Part shown: positions 1 through 4,310 of the stretch, piece by piece
How the letters are laid out: every line of letters starts with the position of its first letter
How positions within the stretch are numbered: the first letter of the stretch is position 1
IMG/VR virus record: IMGVR_UViG_3300029437_000178
Source of the DNA: a virus
Lineage: Duplodnaviria > Heunggongvirae > Uroviricota > Caudoviricetes
DNA: 4,310 bases
Direction: 5' to 3' (one strand)
The notes under the pieces: model-generated
Told to the model about the DNA's origin: nothing
Database searches by the model: none
The model's input: the letters and a program-made list of their open reading frames with translations, nothing else
Position numbers and translations under genes: made by a program

Positions 1-196
1 CTTTGTTAGCAGCATTCAGGAAGAAATTGCCGGGGAAGCCTTCATACTCTGCTTTTTCATCACCATCATGCAGGCACAGCTTGAGTTTTTTCTCCAGTTG
101 GTTATAAATGGGCTCCCACTTCTCTCCCCATTTTTCCTTCGCTACCTGCTTCATAGCTTTACGGATTTCTTCCAGTTGTGGGTGTTTGGGTGACAT
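1..196 (-). CDS. Hypothetical phage protein, N-terminal 65 codons; gene runs off the window start. Tentatively ssDNA-binding-like.
   Basis: My own translation of the minus strand from ATG at 196..194: MSPKHPQLEEIRKAMKQVAKEKWGEKWEPIYNQLEKKLKLCLHDGDEKAEYEGFPGNFFLNAANK..., open to position 1 with no stop. Same orientation as, and 78 bp downstream of, the nuclease gene. The K..WG.K / L.DGDE / Y.G.FFLNA pattern resembles, from memory only, phage Gp2.5-like ssDNA-binding proteins that often accompany Cas4-like nucleases. No SD is evident before this ATG (see findings). Confidence 0.5.
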   Translation of the reverse strand, partial: MSPKHPQLEEIRKAMKQVAKEKWGEKWEPIYNQLEKKLKLCLHDGDEKAEYEGFPGNFFLNAANK

Positions 197-273
197 TAAA
201 AATACTGCGGAGAAACGTGGATCGCCTTCGCCGTTTACAGTTTCAGCTTCAGTTTCATGGGTATTTCCTTAAA

Positions 274-1575
274 TCAGATGAGGTCTGCGGTTAGCGTATC
301 GTCGGATACGTCGTCGAAATCATTTACAGGGTTGATATTGAGTGCGGGGCGTGGGTCTGACTCGGGAACGATGGTGGGTTTACCATCAGCTCGTGTTATC
401 AGTGCCTCGACTTTTGACCAACGGCGCGGACTGGCCTTTTTGATAAGTTTTTCGGCTTTTGTGGGGCTAATAAGTTTAAAGTCGAATACTTCTTCAGTTT
501 TGTACCTGAACTGGTCCTTCAGAAGTGCGCGAGCTGCCTCTTCATCACTCCAGGCCCGGTTACCTTGTTTTCCTGTTACCAGTTTAAACCCCGGTACCGG
601 ATGTCCGGCATTGAGTTCATTGTGAACCCGGTCTCGTACTGCCTTTAGCCAGGATTCAATAAAGTCGGCCTGGCTATAGATCTCCGCAAGCTGCTCAATG
701 GTTAACAGAGGTACACGTGCGCTGGCATTGGAGATTATTTCGCTGACAGGCTTTGTCAGATCTTCAAAATCGCTGGCCGCTGTTTGTAAATGCTGCATTT
801 TCTGGGCAGTGCAAATAGCTTTTGCTTTACAGAAGCGGCACTGTTTTTCTCCAGGTATGAAGTTTTCCAGCGGTAGTGTCTCAATGCCTTCGCATTCAGC
901 AATATTGAGAACAAGGATCGCACTGGTTGCGGCCTCCAGTGCCCGTTCACCGAAAGACTGAAGTTCCTGTACGGTTAACGACCATTCTGAAACGTGGTTG
1001 AGCCTTGGCTGGTGAATAAATAATCTTACAGTCTCAAAGTCATACAGCATGCTGAATTGTTCGAGCGCACCCAGAGCATACAGTTGTAGTTGCTCATTTT
1101 GTTCTGCATCAATGCGGACGCCTTTGCCATATTTCAGGTCGTGGATTTGTAATTCGCTACCAGCAATGATTATGCCGTCGGCAGTTCCGAAAGATTCTTC
1201 CACACCCGTTATATGTGAGAAATCAACACGTTGTTCAACCAATAGTTCATTATTCTGTGCAAGAGTCCAGACCGTATCAACATACCGGCCAACGGCTTCG
1301 ACCATTTCATCATCCACCTGTGGGCCAGATGTATCATTAGGATTTTCGCGAAGGGGGTATGAGCCGAGAAACATAGAAACATTGCATCCGGCGTAGTGTT
1401 CCGGGTAGCTTTGCCTGTTTCGTAGAACTTTTTCAGCAAGCGCGTGCGCTGCAGTGCCCTCGATTGCAAAAGTTGTTTCTTTATCCGGTTGTGTGGCCTC
1501 CAGCGCCAGACTTCCTGGGCAGCGCATCCATCGATGCGCTGATGATGGAGAAAGTTGTGCATGAACGTCTGGCAT
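274..1575 (-). CDS. PD-(D/E)XK nuclease of the RecB/Cas4 type with Fe-S cluster cysteines (phage Cas4-like exonuclease) plus a ~170-aa C-terminal extension
   Basis: 433-aa ORF with SD GGAGG 7 nt upstream of the ATG. Motifs read from the translation: Cys19 (RCPGS), GTAD133G, IHD146-L-K148-YG (DxK motif III), Q162-LQL-Y166, and C246-x2-C249-x5-C255. One N-terminal Cys plus a C-terminal CX2CX5C triad is the Fe-S arrangement of Cas4/AddB-type nuclease domains. The [13 protein letters not shown]-terminus matches my recollection of phage DUF2800-type nucleases (not searched). Stop TAA of the upstream gene lies 2 nt before this ATG. Confidence 0.85.
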
Positions 1576-1577
1576 GA

Positions 1578-2480
1578 TTAACCCTCCAGTGCTTTTTCAG
1601 CCAGGGTGATTACTTCAGCGAGATTTTCATCCGTTACTTCACCAAGTTTCCTGGCTCCCTGTTTTTCCAGAATTGCAATAGCTTCTGCCCGGTAACCCCC
1701 TTTTGCTAACTGGAGGATCAACCCTTCAGCTTGTTTGCGTAGTGCCGCGAAATCAATTGTATGGTCATCTTTGGCGTCATGATTCTGGCTGGAATTTGCT
1801 GCGTCTCTGCGTGCAAATTCTTCTTGCAGCTGAAGGTACTCAACACGGTTGATCTCGATATGGCCTTTTTTCAGCATCTCGTTCAACTTGCGTAAGGTGT
1901 GGAGTTCACTGGCTGCTGTGCCGGATACATTTTTGACGTAAAACGGCCCCGTGCGTTCTCCATCTTTGTTACTGGCCTTTTTCGGCTTAACTTCATCACG
2001 CCCATCCGCAGGTGCATCAAGTAGCTGCTCGGCAAAAACACGTCGCTCGCCGATGGTTGGCAGGTCGTCCCAGAACTTAAGGATGTTACGGGACAGGTCC
2101 AGGAGAGCAGGTTTAAGCAGCGCCCTGGCTCGTTTGACGCCCTGCAATGCGCTGTCGAGAGCATCAATCTGAACTACTCGTTTATCGCCTTCAGCATCAC
2201 GGTAGGCAACAGCACGTTGCAGCATGTCTTCTGTGATAGGGGTGGCTACCGGGTAGAAACCAGCCAGTGCGATAACGTCGCTGAACTCCAGATCATCCAG
2301 TGTCATTGCCGCTGACATATTTTCAGTTTCAGTTGCTGTATCCCGACATTCCTGCACTCGTGAAATCGTGTCAGGATGCATAACAATGCCTGATGCCATT
2401 GTGCGGATAAGACGTTCAAGCAGCGCATTATGTTGTGCCAGAAGTTGATTATTAAGTTCGAGACTGGTTTCTAAACTCAT
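1578..2480 (-). CDS. Hypothetical phage protein, 300 aa, acidic and predicted largely helical; likely functional partner of the downstream nuclease
   Basis: 300-aa ORF with SD GAGG 8 nt upstream of the ATG. Its ATG overlaps the stop of the upstream small ORF (ATGA) and its stop sits 2 nt before the nuclease ATG, indicating translational coupling. No Walker A motif and no family signature I recognise. Confidence 0.75.
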
Positions 2481-2647
2481 ACTGTGGTCCTCGCTACAAG
2501 GAGAATGAAAGTGATGATCAGACCGAGCGCAGTGGCAACGGCCAGACCGGTCATCAAATCGAAGTTTTTACGGCGATAACGGAGAACATCGCGCCCCGTC
2601 AGTCGATGGAGGTATTCAGGTTTCATCGGTTGTATTCCTTTTTTCAT
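2477..2647 (-). CDS. Small protein with a C-terminal transmembrane helix (49-69 aa depending on start)
   Basis: The ORF track gives 2477..2686, which begins at a GTG. In-frame ATGs at 2647 and 2626 are more plausible, the latter with AAGGA about 9 nt upstream. The C-terminus DLMTGLAVATALGLIITFILLVA is a clear hydrophobic helix preceded by a basic stretch (RYRRK). Its stop overlaps the ATG of the 300-aa gene. Confidence 0.5.
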   Translation of the reverse strand: MKKGIQPMKPEYLHRLTGRDVLRYRRKNFDLMTGLAVATALGLIITFILLVARTTV

Positions 2648-2743
2648 ATCGGGGAGCACGCTGTGAGGCGGGCAAAGGCTACACACAGCAATTACTTGGA
2701 TGTCAGCGAATGCCTGCTTTTAACCACGTCAGACGAGATGGCT

Positions 2744-2812: not shown

Positions 2813-3337
2813 ATGTCTGAAGAAAAAGGACTTGTACGGCGTATAACTGAGGCGGCCACTAGTGCTGGTGGTGCTTTGAAAGGTGCTGTTGATTTAGCAA
2901 AAGAAGTTAATGCGTTGCAGGTGGATTACAATGTTAAAAGTAAAACTATCGATCTACTTGATAAACTAATTGATGCGCGTACTGGACAATTCGCACTAAC
3001 GGAGCTTTTGAACGAAGCTAAACAGCGCATTGTTGAACTCGAATCCCTTCTGGAAAAGAAACAGGATTGGGATAGTGAGAAAATGAACTATGAAATGTAC
3101 CACCCGATTACCAATACGGTGGTCTATGTACTGAAGCCTACTGACGATCCTGAGTTCAAGCCTCATTATCTTTGTACTACATGCTATGAGTCGGGTATGA
3201 AGTCTATACTTCAATACCATACTTCTAATGCCGCTTATAAAATTCTCAAGTGTCATAAATGCTCCGCTGAATATAAATTTCCCCGAAATATAGAAGTCAG
3301 TGGCAAAACTCCTGCACCGTTACAACCTGCCAGATGA
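2813..3337 (+). CDS. Hypothetical protein, 174 aa: N-terminal coiled-coil-like region plus C-terminal C4 zinc-ribbon-like motif (CTTC...CHKC)
   Basis: Clean 525-nt ORF on the strand opposite to all neighbouring genes, with a weak SD-like GAGAG 7 nt before the ATG. It is visibly AT-richer than the flanks (~40% GC versus ~50% by eye). Heptad-like charged and leucine-rich stretch (LLDKLIDARTGQFALTELLNEAKQRIVELESLLEKKQ) followed by CxxC-x22-CxxC. No similarity I can name. Confidence 0.7.
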   Translation: MSEEKGLVRRITEAATSAGGALKGAVDLAKEVNALQVDYNVKSKTIDLLDKLIDARTGQFALTELLNEAKQRIVELESLLEKKQDWDSEKMNYEMYHPITNTVVYVLKPTDDPEFKPHYLCTTCYESGMKSILQYHTSNAAYKILKCHKCSAEYKFPRNIEVSGKTPAPLQPAR

Positions 3338-3430
3338 TTAGCAGTTCTCTTTGGTGGTGGTGTAGTGGTAGATGCTGAACTTCGGATTGACTCAATGGAC
3401 TGATCTTCACCCCACCCCAAAAGGAACTAA

Positions 3431-3448
3431 GCGCCCCATCGTCGGGGC
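3431..3448. terminator. GC-rich hairpin between the converging 174-aa gene and the leftward leader; possible weak or bidirectional terminator
   Basis: CGCCCC-atcgtc-GGGGCG, a 6-bp GC stem. It is followed by TTTCAACTT on the plus strand and CTTAGTTCCTTTT on the minus strand; neither is a strong U-tract. Confidence 0.3.
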
Positions 3449-3493
3449 GTTTCAACTTGCGTGACTTATCAGTTTGTCGCGGTGTTGTCCTCT

Positions 3494-3578
3494 ACGCTTA
3501 CCGTACGCATACGGACTCGGCGCTTACCTCGATCCCATCGGGTGCTATTTCGTTTTGCCAGGAGTACTGCGGCTTACC
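3494..3578. repeat. Three direct copies of GCTTACC (plus strand) in the ORF-free leader
   Basis: GCTTACC at 3495-3501, 3521-3527 and 3571-3577 (8-mers CGCTTACC twice, GCTTACCT twice); spacing 26 and 50 bp. A palindromic hairpin CCGTA-CGCA-TACGG at 3500-3513 overlaps the first copy. Confidence 0.4.
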
Positions 3579-3593
3579 TGTCACGCGGTTCAG

Positions 3594-3606
3594 TTTGTTA
3601 AAGAGC
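3594..3606 (-). promoter_or_regulatory. boxA-like element in the leader RNA
   Basis: Minus-strand GCTCTTTTAACAA, about 30 nt downstream of the predicted start. It resembles the boxA core (CGCTCTT / rrn-type GCTCTTTAACAA) of Nus-dependent antitermination sites, with one extra T. Confidence 0.3.
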
Positions 3607-3619
3607 CAGTATTAAAAAA

Positions 3620-3652
3620 CGCATTAATTATGCGATATCGTATTTATATGCG
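3620..3652. promoter_or_regulatory. Operator-like palindromes overlapping the -10 and start site of the leftward promoter
   Basis: 15-bp near-palindrome CGCATTAATTATGCG (3620-3634; 6 of 7 symmetric pairs around a central A) and a weaker related site CGTATTTATATGCG (3639-3652) sharing the ATGCG half-site. Confidence 0.35.
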
Positions 3653-3671
3653 TTATGGGATTTTGTGTCAA
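3643..3671 (-). promoter_or_regulatory. Near-consensus sigma70 promoter reading leftward (candidate early-left, pL-like promoter)
   Basis: On the minus strand: -35 TTGACA (plus coordinates 3666-3671), exactly 17-bp spacer, -10 TATAAA (3643-3648). An AT-rich UP-like tract lies upstream (3672-3695). Predicted start near 3636. Confidence 0.55.
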
Positions 3672-3755: not shown

Positions 3756-4310
3756 TTAGTACATACGTAGCGCGGATTTGGCGATCCCCGCCACGTAATG
3801 GATTTTTTCAATGTTTTCGCGTGGTACTCTGACTGGTGGATGATCTTCATTTACAGACATTAGATGGAACAGGCCATCGCGTTCGAACAAGAAGGTTTTA
3901 ACCATGACCTCACCTTCCCGGGTAACCACAAGTACTTCATCACCAGNNNNNNNNNNAGTCGTGGTTGGGTTCGACGATTACGAACTCCCCCTCTTTGATT
4001 CTAGGCATCATTGAATCACCAACACATTTCAGGGCGTATGCATCTTCATCCTTTGTCGGCCAGTATATGAAACCATCACTGCTACCTACTGAATATTGGG
4101 TGTCGCTCCAAAGTCCTCCAACGCCTAGCTGAGTGTTTCCCAAAACAGGTACTTTATTAAACCTAAGAGAAATATACGTTTTTATACCTGTCGCGTCCTC
4201 TTTCTCCATTTCTTGAAGGCTCCTTTCTGCCAAGTCTATTGGTGACACGTGGAAGTAGTCGGCGATCTGCTTTAACGTTGCGTATTTCGGATCTTTCACC
4301 TCTCCTGATA
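3756..4310 (-). CDS. LexA/CI-type repressor (S24 peptidase family); interrupted by a 10-N gap, and the 5' end probably lies beyond the window
   Basis: Minus-strand ORF 3940..4299 translates to an N-terminal HTH-like segment (TLKQIADYFHVSPIDLAE), a linker (VPVLGNTQLGVGG), then GDSMMP (Ser nucleophile motif) and EGEFVIVEP. After the N-run the other frame continues GDEVLVVTREGEVMVKTF...IHYVAGIAKSALRMY to TAA at 3758..3756, carrying the Lys of the Ser-Lys dyad and aligning by eye with LexA (DGDLLAVHK...VTVKRL). The track's stop at 3940 is an artefact of the gap. The start in the track is a GTG at 4299, and the frame stays open to the window end. Confidence 0.85.
3947..3956. other. Assembly gap (10 N) inside the repressor gene
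   Basis: Run of n characters. Flanking coding frames differ by one position, so the true gap length is not a multiple of 3 or is not exactly 10. Confidence 0.95.

What the first reader, a model, noticed from the sequence alone, without database searches (positions are those of the whole stretch)
274..2686. Tightly coupled operon ending in an Fe-S Cas4/RecB-type nuclease, with an unassigned 300-aa partner
Three ORFs are packed with overlapping or 2-nt-spaced start and stop codons (ATGA at 2480..2477; TAA-tc-ATG at 1580..1573), with a fourth gene following after 78 bp. The nuclease carries DxK and QxxxY motifs and the C...CX2CX5C cysteine arrangement, so it is probably a phage recombination exonuclease. 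The 300-aa acidic protein directly upstream has no Walker motif and no signature I recognise; by position it may be an annealase, an accessory factor or an inhibitor of host nucleases. The nuclease's ~170-aa C-terminal extension is also unassigned.
Basis: partly seen in the sequence, partly recalled or inferred. Interest (0 to 1): 0.5.

Follow-up and report, generated by a model that had tools for sequence, protein, structure and literature searches.

The report
Phage nuclease operon with conserved partner
This is the early recombination/replication operon of a common E. coli prophage: a known type of iron-sulfur DNA-end nuclease (DUF2800), and directly upstream of it an enlarged member of an unnamed protein family that sits next to this nuclease in very diverse phages and probably works as its partner.

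Summary
The ORFs, their coupled junctions and the nuclease motifs are real. The window is 99.7% identical to a prophage of E. coli ETEC H10407.

- **Nuclease.** The 433-aa protein is a full-length DUF2800 / PD-(D/E)XK nuclease. Its four cysteines and catalytic residues are invariant in 45/45 diverse homologs. The "C-terminal extension" is part of the family model.
- **Operon extent.** The operon does not end at the nuclease. In intact relatives a DUF2815 (Enc34/T7 gp2.5-like) SSB/annealase starts 15 nt downstream, followed by DNA polymerase A. This is the published duf2800-gp2.5-polA module.
- **300-aa protein.** It is not an annealase. It has no Pfam or PDB match. The model (pLDDT 88) shows an N-terminal helix, a helical domain, a small beta module and a C-terminal three-helix bundle.
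- **Family and synteny.** Shorter relatives (107-170 aa; PHROG 408) have only the helix, a linker and the bundle. A family member lies upstream of DUF2800 in 30 of 40 non-redundant loci, and in 8 of 8 context look-ups.
- **Shared tail.** The nuclease and its cognate SSB carry co-varying acidic C-terminal tails.

My best reading is that the 300-aa protein is a nuclease-bound adaptor. This is inferred, not shown.

The parts
2477..2626 (-). Small basic membrane protein, 49 aa (MKPEYLH...; one C-terminal transmembrane helix). Its stop overlaps the start of the next gene (ATGA).
   Evidence: PHROG 11981, E 6e-35, covers only residues 21-69 of the 69-aa version; RefSeq annotation, 49 aa
1578..2480 (-). 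300-aa partner protein (PHROG 6784). It is an enlarged member of an unnamed family found upstream of DUF2800 nucleases.
2394..2474 (-). Partner: N-terminal helix (aa 3-29). The MSLE start is conserved even in distant short relatives.
1986..2303 (-). Partner: central helical domain (aa 60-165). It is absent from the short relatives. Residues 108-223 are shared with a YdfE-like prophage protein.
1776..1958 (-). Partner: small beta-beta-alpha-beta-alpha module (aa 175-235; GPFY...VEYLQLQ). It lies elsewhere in some relatives and is absent from many.
1584..1751 (-). Partner: C-terminal three-helix bundle (aa 244-299). This is the most widely conserved part of the family.
   Evidence: (PHROG 408, E 4e-5)
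274..1575 (-). 433-aa DUF2800 nuclease (PD-(D/E)XK, RecB/AddB/Cas4-like).
   Evidence: PF10926 E 2.9e-110; PF12705 E 1.6e-9; PHROG 69 'exonuclease' E 2.5e-135
811..840 (-). Nuclease: C246-X2-C249-X5-C255. Together with C19 (nt 1519-1521) this gives the four cysteines of the presumed Fe-S site.
1078..1179 (-). Nuclease: catalytic stretch from D133 to Y166 (D133, D146-L-K148, Q162xxxY166).
346..768 (-). Nuclease: DUF2800-specific C-terminal domain (aa 270-410). G329, K331, R340 and D407 are invariant in 45/45 homologs. It has no solved relative by sequence.
277..324 (-). Nuclease: acidic C-terminal tail [16 protein letters not shown]. It resembles the tail of the cognate DUF2815 SSB.
1..258 (-). 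5' part of the DUF2815 (Enc34 / gp2.5-like) SSB gene. ATG at 258..256, 15 nt after the nuclease stop. Here a 40-bp deletion (junction about 242-250) shifts the frame, and the gene is cut by the window edge.
   Evidence: PF10991 E 7e-11; PHROG 112

Best explanation
The region is the promoter-proximal part of the early leftward recombination/replication operon of a temperate E. coli myophage-type prophage. In intact relatives the gene order is: 49-aa membrane protein, 300-aa partner, DUF2800 nuclease, DUF2815 SSB, DNA polymerase A, and further on VRR-NUC and an SNF2 helicase.

The DUF2800 protein is a RecB/AddB/Cas4-like PD-(D/E)XK nuclease. Its four invariant cysteines most likely hold a 4Fe-4S cluster. 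It most likely processes double-stranded DNA ends into single strands. Those strands would be taken over by the gp2.5-like SSB/annealase encoded next to it, for recombination-dependent replication and repair.

The 300-aa protein is an enlarged member of a family whose minimal form has three parts: an N-terminal amphipathic helix, a flexible Pro/Ala/Glu/Lys-rich linker, and a C-terminal three-helix bundle. I propose that it binds the nuclease, is made with it by translational coupling, and acts as a two-ended tether or adaptor. It would link or regulate the nuclease relative to the other replication proteins.

The nuclease and the SSB carry the same phage-specific acidic C-terminal tail. They therefore probably dock, in turn or in competition, on one common site: the polymerase, the primase-helicase, the SSB groove or the partner's bundle.

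Shown: gene identities, motif conservation, synteny, coupling, domain architecture and tail co-variation. Inferred: Fe-S binding, nuclease polarity, physical binding of the partner, and the tail receptor.
For: **Identity and context**
- 99.7% identical to an ETEC H10407 prophage. Matches in 157 of 5426 complete E. coli genomes, and 98.5% identical to phage vB_EcoM-606R2.
- The duf2800-gp2.5-polA module is described in PMC8093625. DUF2800 is listed as RecB-like in PMC3424549.
- Enc34 ORF6 (DUF2815) is an experimentally shown SSB with a gp2.5 fold and an acidic tail (PMC5686142).

**Nuclease**
- Pfam, PHROG and PADLOC hits.
- D133, D146, K148, Q162, Y166 and C19/C246/C249/C255 are invariant in 45/45 homologs.
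- In a homolog from phage Bas14, the D-x-K residues are required for its in vivo effect of triggering a retron (bioRxiv 10.64898/2026.07.14.737667).

**Partner**
- A family member lies upstream on the same strand in 87 of 99 DUF2800 loci. After clustering the nucleases below 60% identity, this is 30 of 40 clusters: 24 directly adjacent or overlapping and 6 within 700 nt.
- A C-terminal-domain-only profile adds candidates in Salvo, Dhillonvirus and Jerseyvirus phages.
- In the reverse direction, 8 of 8 family members found by profile search alone lie directly upstream of DUF2800. This holds even where DUF2815 is more than 2 kb away.
- APSE-1 P53/P51/P50 and Yersinia phage YeP5 have the same layout.
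- The protein directly upstream of the Streptococcus phage Javan239 nuclease is PHROG 408 (E 1.8e-37). This family also matches the C-terminal part of the 300-aa protein.
- Architecture comes from a confident model (pLDDT 88) and from alignments A2, A4 and A5.

**Tails**
- Nuclease tails match the cognate SSB tail better than non-cognate tails in 31 clusters (0 of 10,000 permutations for the last 3-6 residues).
- The coding DNA of the two tails is only 30/54 identical, and no other protein of the module has the tail.
Against: - There is no direct evidence of binding between the partner and the nuclease. No partner-nuclease gene fusion was found.
- Ten of the 40 non-redundant DUF2800 clusters have no detectable partner with the main profile, so the partner may not be needed for nuclease activity.
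- The viral loci were chosen as the best matches to this nuclease, so the sample leans towards its relatives.
- In Bas14 the DUF2800 gene tolerates truncation, so the module is not always essential.
- In this window the SSB gene is frameshifted. In H10407 the polymerase and SNF2 genes are pseudogenes. This copy may therefore no longer function as a unit.
Confidence: 0.55

Rival explanations
1. The 300-aa protein is a Gam-like inhibitor of host end-processing nucleases (RecBCD/AddAB). It would protect linear phage DNA while the phage's own nuclease works.
For: It occupies the promoter-proximal position in an early leftward operon next to the exonuclease, as gam does in lambda. It is acidic and largely helical with a long N-terminal helix.
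Against: - The family accompanies DUF2800 in phages of Gram-negative and Gram-positive hosts, whose end-processing enzymes differ.
- It stays attached to DUF2800 even when other genes of the module move away.
- It has no Pfam hit, including Gam, and Gam is not among the top fold matches.
Confidence: 0.12
2. The 300-aa protein is the single-strand annealing protein (recombinase) of the operon.
For: It is encoded directly upstream of, and coupled to, an exonuclease, as bet is to exo. [quoted passage not shown]
Against: - No hit to RecT/Red beta, Erf, Rad52, Sak3, Sak4 or gp2.5 models.
- The predicted fold lacks an SSAP core.
- Short family members are only about 110 aa, made of a helix, a linker and a bundle.
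- A gp2.5-like SSB/annealase is encoded two genes on.
- hhalign against lambda Bet and NinB gives probability below 1%.
Confidence: 0.04
3. The partner is a DNA-binding replication or regulatory protein, for example an origin or end-binding factor. It would use the three-helix bundle as a DNA-binding module and would be only co-regulated with the nuclease, not bound to it.
For: It is the first conserved gene of a replication module. Three-helix bundles often bind DNA. The bundle has a widely, though not universally, conserved Arg/Lys pair (R264, K278).
Against: - No HTH or other DNA-binding family hit.
- The protein is acidic overall.
- Overlapping stop/start codons with the nuclease across very distant phages suggest stoichiometric co-production rather than mere co-regulation.
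Confidence: 0.15
4. The partner restrains the nuclease as an inhibitor or timing device, rather than recruiting it.
For: It is made just before the nuclease from the same message. A potent end-processing nuclease is potentially harmful to the phage's own DNA.
Against: Nothing here separates activation from inhibition. Ten of 40 nuclease clusters appear to manage without a detectable partner.
Confidence: 0.12

Closest known systems
duf2800-gp2.5-polA replication/recombination module of phages (PMC8093625); Enc34 / 'Nazgul-like' phage replication module (PMC5686142)
   Same: The gene order DUF2800 nuclease, DUF2815 SSB, DNA polymerase A is the same. A divergent Prim-Pol/VapE primase-helicase is also present, with VRR-NUC and SNF2 genes further on.
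   Different: The published descriptions read here do not mention the upstream partner family. This copy has the enlarged 300-aa version, a disrupted SSB gene and a temperate lambdoid-style setting (CI-like repressor, Cro-like protein, Q).
[quoted passage not shown]
   Same: It is an early operon with a coupled exonuclease. The protein encoded upstream ends in a three-helix bundle. In lambda that bundle binds both the exonuclease and the acidic SSB tail, which is the kind of role proposed here.
   Different: The exonuclease family differs: lambda Exo/YqaJ versus Fe-S RecB-like DUF2800. There is no sequence relation between the bundles (hhalign probability below 1%). The structural match is no better than to designed helical bundles. 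The partner has no annealase domain.
T7 gp2.5 and its acidic C-terminal tail
   Same: The adjacent SSB belongs to the gp2.5 structural class. Its acidic tail is known to contact the polymerase and the primase-helicase in T7 (as summarised in PMC5686142).
   Different: Here the nuclease carries a copy of the SSB-type tail that co-varies with it. I did not find this described in the papers read.
AddB / AdnA / RecB nuclease domains and Cas4
   Same: The PD-(D/E)XK core, the QxxxY motif and the C...CX2CX5C cysteines are shared. A DUF2800 homolog was compared with AdnA and RecB in bioRxiv 10.64898/2026.07.14.737667.
   Different: It is a stand-alone phage protein without a helicase domain. It has a DUF2800-specific C-terminal domain and an acidic tail. 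There are no cas genes or CRISPR array nearby.
Hamiltonella phage APSE-1 P53-P51-P50
   Same: The layout is the same: a 307-aa partner homolog (PHROG 33976, which also hits PHROG 6784) overlaps the start of the DUF2800 exonuclease and is followed by a gp2.5-like SSB.
   Different: Only the central and C-terminal parts are recognisably similar. The host and the phage type differ.

Membership tests
DUF2800 (Pfam PF10926) | Full-length match to the family model above its curated cut-off | tested here: met
   369.4 bits against a cut-off of 21, E 2.9e-110. Residues 5-410 align to model positions 1-368 of 368.
Fe-S PD-(D/E)XK nucleases (RecB/AddB/Cas4-like, PF12705) | Catalytic D...(D/E)xK motif and QxxxY motif | tested here: met
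   D133, D146-L-K148 and Q162xxxY166 are invariant in 45/45 homologs. PF12705 E 1.6e-9.
Fe-S PD-(D/E)XK nucleases (RecB/AddB/Cas4-like, PF12705) | Four cysteines: one N-terminal plus CX2CX5C after the core | tested here: met
   C19, C246, C249 and C255 are invariant in 45/45 homologs. The other cysteines are not conserved.
Fe-S PD-(D/E)XK nucleases (RecB/AddB/Cas4-like, PF12705) | Bound iron-sulfur cluster and nuclease activity | not testable with these tools
   This needs purified protein. For a Bas14 homolog only an in vivo requirement for the D-x-K residues is reported.
CRISPR-associated Cas4 | Genomic association with cas1/cas2 or a CRISPR array, and a match to a Cas4 model | tested here: not met
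   There are no cas genes in 44 kb around the H10407 copy. The PADLOC Cas4 match is weak (E 0.004, residues 129-255).
duf2800-gp2.5-polA module | DUF2800 followed by DUF2815 and DNA polymerase A on the same strand | tested here: met
   DUF2815 lies directly downstream in the window (PF10991 E 7e-11). The polymerase is seen in the H10407 and phage copies. In this window the DUF2815 gene is frameshifted.
Single-strand annealing proteins (RecT/Red beta, Erf, Rad52/Sak, Sak3, Sak4, gp2.5), tested for the 300-aa protein | Match to a family model or to the corresponding core fold | tested here: not met
   No Pfam hit for any of the 30 aligned family members tested. No PDB sequence hit. The model is helical with one small beta module. 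SSAP structures appear only as poor superpositions.
Lambda Gam-type host nuclease inhibitors, tested for the 300-aa protein | Match to the Gam family model or fold | tested here: not met
Red beta C-terminal domain / lambda Orf three-helix bundle | Specific structural or sequence relation beyond a generic three-helix bundle | tested here: inconclusive
DUF2800-associated partner family (PHROGs 6784, 33976, 408; no Pfam entry) | N-terminal helix (often starting MSLE) plus a C-terminal three-helix bundle, encoded upstream of DUF2800 on the same strand | tested here: met
   PHROG 6784 E 1.5e-178, PHROG 33976 E 1.8e-22, PHROG 408 E 4.3e-5. Architecture. Position.

The most novel reading that the evidence does not exclude
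The unnamed partner family is a missing third component of one of the most widespread phage recombination/replication modules. It would be a flexible tether whose C-terminal bundle reads the phage-specific acidic tail that the DUF2800 nuclease shares with its SSB. Resected DNA would thus be handed from nuclease to SSB/annealase. [quoted passage not shown]
Probability: 0.15. Interest if true: 0.65.

Novelty: new variant of a known kind. Interest (0 to 1): 0.45.

Why it matters
DUF2800 nucleases occur in 1749 of 50,697 deposited phage genomes. One of them was recently reported to trigger a retron defence system. Yet their biochemistry and their partners are essentially unstudied.

Two observations give concrete handles on how this module is assembled:
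- An unnamed protein family is genetically attached to the nuclease across Gram-negative and Gram-positive phages.
- The nuclease copies the interaction tail of its SSB.

Both could guide recombineering tools built from gp2.5-type systems. For this particular window the practical message is more modest.

Tried and rejected
- **Sequence searches for the 300-aa protein.** Pfam, NCBIfam, PADLOC and PDB-sequence searches, with single sequences and with profiles, found nothing.
- **Red beta C-terminal domain / Orf link.** Tested with hhalign and not supported at the sequence level.
- **Partner-nuclease fusions.** None found.
- **PDB relatives of the nuclease.** None found, either with the single sequence or with the profile.
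- **RNA genes.** Rfam and tRNA scans of the window found nothing credible.
- **Operon promoter.** The promoter scan found no convincing promoter immediately upstream of the operon.
- **The 40-bp deletion.** A search for another genome sharing it found none in 145 E. coli genomes or in the viral contigs.
Full report
**1. What the window is**

The 4310-base window is 99.7% identical to a prophage of E. coli ETEC H10407. That prophage lies between the yfhL side of the chromosome and phage structural genes. The window matches 157 of 5426 complete E. coli genomes and is 98.5% identical to the sequenced phage vB_EcoM-606R2.

In H10407 the minus-strand gene order is: 49-aa protein, 300-aa protein, DUF2800, DUF2815, a plus-strand hypothetical gene, DNA polymerase (frameshifted), ANR, DUF4406, VRR-NUC, Dcm methylase, a hypothetical gene, SNF2 (internal stop), integrase. 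On the other side lie a plus-strand 174-aa gene, a CI-like S24 repressor, a Cro-like protein, a Prim-Pol/VapE primase-helicase, Q, lysis genes and myovirus-type structural genes. The finding is therefore the promoter-proximal part of an early leftward operon of a temperate phage.

**2. Check of the observation**

The 300-aa ORF (2480..1578) and the 433-aa ORF (1575..274) exist as described. So do the ATGA overlap at 2480..2477 and the TAA-tc-ATG junction at 1580..1573. Both starts have good ribosome-binding sites. Four points need correction.

- *First ORF.* It most likely begins at ATG 2626 (49 aa; AAGGAA 8 nt upstream), not at GTG 2686. RefSeq calls it that way, and PHROG 11981 aligns only to residues 21-69 of the long version.
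- *Fourth gene.* Compared with H10407 the window lacks 40 bp just inside the 5' end of the DUF2815 gene. The deletion is flanked by the near-repeat GAAGCTGAA / GAAGCTAAA. The true start (ATG 258..256, 15 nt after the nuclease stop) now reads MKLKLKL-stop, and the rest of the gene continues in another frame. None of 145 matching E. coli genomes, and no viral contig, shares the junction. It is private to this source or an assembly error.
- *Operon end.* The operon does not end at the nuclease.
- *C-terminal region.* The nuclease's C-terminal region is not an extension (section 3).

**3. The nuclease**

The protein matches Pfam DUF2800 over its whole length (E 2.9e-110; residues 5-410 align to the full 368-position model). 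Residues 7-255 match PDDEXK_1 (E 1.6e-9). It also matches PHROG 69 'exonuclease' (E 2.5e-135), and weakly a Cas4 model over residues 129-255.

In an alignment of 45 diverse homologs, the following are invariant: D133, D146, K148, Q162, Y166, H44, E114 and the four cysteines C19, C246, C249, C255. The two other cysteines are not conserved.

The C-terminal half is also conserved. G329, K331, R340 and D407 are invariant from Streptococcus phages to E. coli prophages. It is therefore a family-defining domain of unknown fold. No solved structure is related to it by sequence.

From the literature:
- DUF2800 is classed as RecB-like (PMC3424549).
- The duf2800-gp2.5-polA module is noted in Firmicutes phages and in phages of Gram-negative hosts (PMC8093625).
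- A Bas14 DUF2800 protein resembles AdnA/RecB. Its D-x-K residues are needed for it to trigger a type IX retron. Its gene tolerates truncation in escape mutants (bioRxiv 10.64898/2026.07.14.737667).

Homologs occur in 1749 of 50,697 phage records. Fe-S binding and nuclease polarity remain inferred.

**4. The 300-aa protein**

It has no Pfam, NCBIfam, PADLOC or PDB-sequence match. All 120 listed homologs (of 587 found) in a 5.8-billion-protein database are unnamed. A full HMMER scan of 1.84 billion cluster representatives found only 77 related clusters.

With a diverse alignment the AlphaFold model is confident (mean pLDDT 88). It shows:
- an N-terminal helix (residues 3-29);
- a disordered linker;
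- a helical domain (60-165);
- a small beta-beta-alpha-beta-alpha module (175-235);
- a C-terminal three-helix bundle (244-299).

The low pTM (0.50) reflects flexible links between the domains.

The beta module (GPFY...VEYLQLQ) sits at a different place in some relatives and is absent from many. Together with part of the helical domain it is shared with a 513-aa YdfE-like prophage protein (31% identity, E 1e-12).

Fold searches gave only weak, generic matches.

**5. The partner family and its link to DUF2800**

I collected 99 loci carrying DUF2800, with nuclease identity to the window ranging from 34 to 99%. In 87 of them a member of the 300-aa family lies upstream on the same strand, usually with 0-6 nt between the genes or with overlapping codons.

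After clustering the nucleases below 60% identity there are 40 clusters:
- 24 have the partner directly adjacent;
- 6 have it within 700 nt;
- 10 show none with the main profile.

A profile of the C-terminal bundle alone adds candidates in three of those ten: Xylella phage Salvo gp69 (E 7e-6), a Dhillonvirus (E 9e-4) and a Jerseyvirus (E 2e-3). These E-values are relative to a small ORF set.

In distant phages the partner is short (107-170 aa). It consists of an N-terminal helix, often starting MSLE, then a Pro/Ala/Glu/Lys-rich linker, then the three-helix bundle. The Streptococcus phage Javan239 example is PHROG 408 (E 1.8e-37). This family also matches the C-terminal part of the window protein. 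APSE-1 P53-P51-P50 and Yersinia phage YeP5 show the same layout.

The association holds in the reverse direction too. Eight of eight family members found by profile searches alone lie directly upstream of DUF2800. This is so even where DUF2815 has been separated by more than 2 kb of other genes.

No source names the short proteins, and none carries a Pfam domain. The 80 viral loci were the best matches to this nuclease, so the proportions are biased towards its relatives. An unbiased census is still needed.

**6. Shared tails**

The nuclease ends in [16 protein letters not shown]. The cognate SSB (read from H10407, since the window ends inside the gene) ends in DDFDDISEGADAEALI. The resemblance recurs in other phages and changes together:

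| Nuclease ends | Cognate SSB ends |
|---|---|
| ...AESLI | ...AESLI |
| ...EFI | ...EFV |
| ...ISLL | ...TGLL |
| ...EGLV | ...EGLV |
| ...SEFA | ...EEFA |

In 31 clusters, the last 3-6 residues of the nuclease score better against the cognate SSB tail than against non-cognate tails in all 10,000 permutations. The two tail-coding DNA segments are only 30/54 identical, so this is selection on the protein rather than recent gene conversion. No other protein of the module carries the tail.

In T7-type SSBs the acidic tail mediates contacts with the polymerase and the primase-helicase (summarised in PMC5686142). A shared tail suggests that the nuclease and the SSB use one docking site.

**7. Most likely mechanism**

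- *Shown.* This is a DUF2800-DUF2815-PolA module. The nuclease keeps all residues of an Fe-S RecB/Cas4-type active site. An unnamed protein family is genetically, and probably translationally, coupled to it. The nuclease mimics the SSB tail.
- *Inferred.* The nuclease resects DNA ends. The gp2.5-like protein coats and anneals the single strands. The partner binds the nuclease and acts as a flexible tether or regulator.

**8. Rivals**

- *Gam-like host-nuclease inhibitor.* This fits the gene's position. It fits poorly with conservation across hosts that have different end-processing enzymes, and with the tight linkage to DUF2800.
- *Annealase.* Rejected on family, fold and size, and because a gp2.5-like protein is already present.
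- *DNA-binding replication factor, or inhibitor of the nuclease.* Both remain possible.

**9. Novelty and score**

The nuclease and the module are known kinds. This copy is a common, partly decayed prophage. What is new here is the recognition of the partner family, its near-constant position next to DUF2800, its enlarged form in enterobacterial prophages, and the nuclease-SSB tail mimicry. I rate the finding as a new variant of a known kind, interest 0.45.

Noticed in passing
window 242-258 (compare L001 20250-20300): A 40-bp deletion relative to all 145 matching E. coli genomes. It is flanked by the near-repeat GAAGCTGAA/GAAGCTAAA and frameshifts the DUF2815 SSB gene after codon 6 (MKLKLKL-stop). 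It is either a private mutation or an assembly error.
   Followed up: yes
window about 2664 (compare L001 22700-22745): A 38-bp deletion relative to H10407. It lies about 40 nt upstream of the 49-aa ORF in the window (about 60 nt in H10407). It removes most of a hairpin followed by a T-run (GCCCGCCTCAAGTGACGGGCTTTTTT) on the operon strand. The role of this terminator-like element in front of the operon is unknown.
   Followed up: partly
window 3947-3956: Ten N bases replace six bases (GAGTGT in H10407) inside the S24-peptidase domain of the CI-like repressor gene. They split it into two apparent ORFs.
   Followed up: partly
window 277-324; L001 19750-19800: The nuclease and the neighbouring SSB end in the same kind of acidic tail (..DFDD[VI]S....A[DE][AL]LI). 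The tails co-vary between phages (0 of 10,000 permutations) although their DNA is only 56% identical.
   Followed up: yes
window 2813-3337 (+): A 174-aa gene antisense to the operon direction, between the repressor and the operon. GC is about 40-44%, against about 49% in the operon. It has a coiled-coil N-terminus and two CxxC pairs (zinc-ribbon-like). It matches PHROG 1244 (unknown function) and has no defence-system hit. It looks like an inserted moron, and the region differs in phage vB_EcoM-606R2.
   Followed up: partly
window 3671-3620 (-): A near-consensus sigma-70 promoter, TTGACA-17 nt-TATAAA (3671..3643), pointing towards the operon. It is followed immediately by the 15-bp palindrome CGCATAATTAATGCG (3634..3620) and a T-run. 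It is a candidate early-left promoter with operator, about 1 kb upstream of the first ORF. The scan's rules missed it because the last base of the -10 hexamer is A.
   Followed up: no
window 3425-3600 (-): A stretch with no convincing ORF on the operon strand. It contains a GC-rich hairpin (GCCCCGACGATGGGGC) followed by a T-rich run. There was no Rfam match. It could be a leader or a small RNA.
   Followed up: partly
L027:2990-3508, also L026, L045, L006, L052, L042: In some otherwise near-identical prophages, a 172-aa HNH homing endonuclease (NUMOD4 + HNH_3) is inserted exactly between the 300-aa gene and the nuclease gene. It overlaps the nuclease start by 8 nt.
   Followed up: partly
window 1776-1958; L015:5001-6542: The small beta module GPFY...VEYLQLQ behaves as a mobile unit. 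It is N-terminal in some relatives, absent in many, and shared with a 513-aa YdfE-like protein of a Rac/Qin-type prophage.
   Followed up: partly
L001 12724-19021: In the H10407 copy the DNA polymerase is frameshifted and the SNF2 helicase has an internal stop. That prophage's replication module is therefore decaying as well.
   Followed up: no
L103:5296-5553: In one metagenomic relative, a gene with an Acb2/Tad1-hairpin domain (anti-defence sponge family) is inserted between the nuclease and the SSB genes.
   Followed up: no
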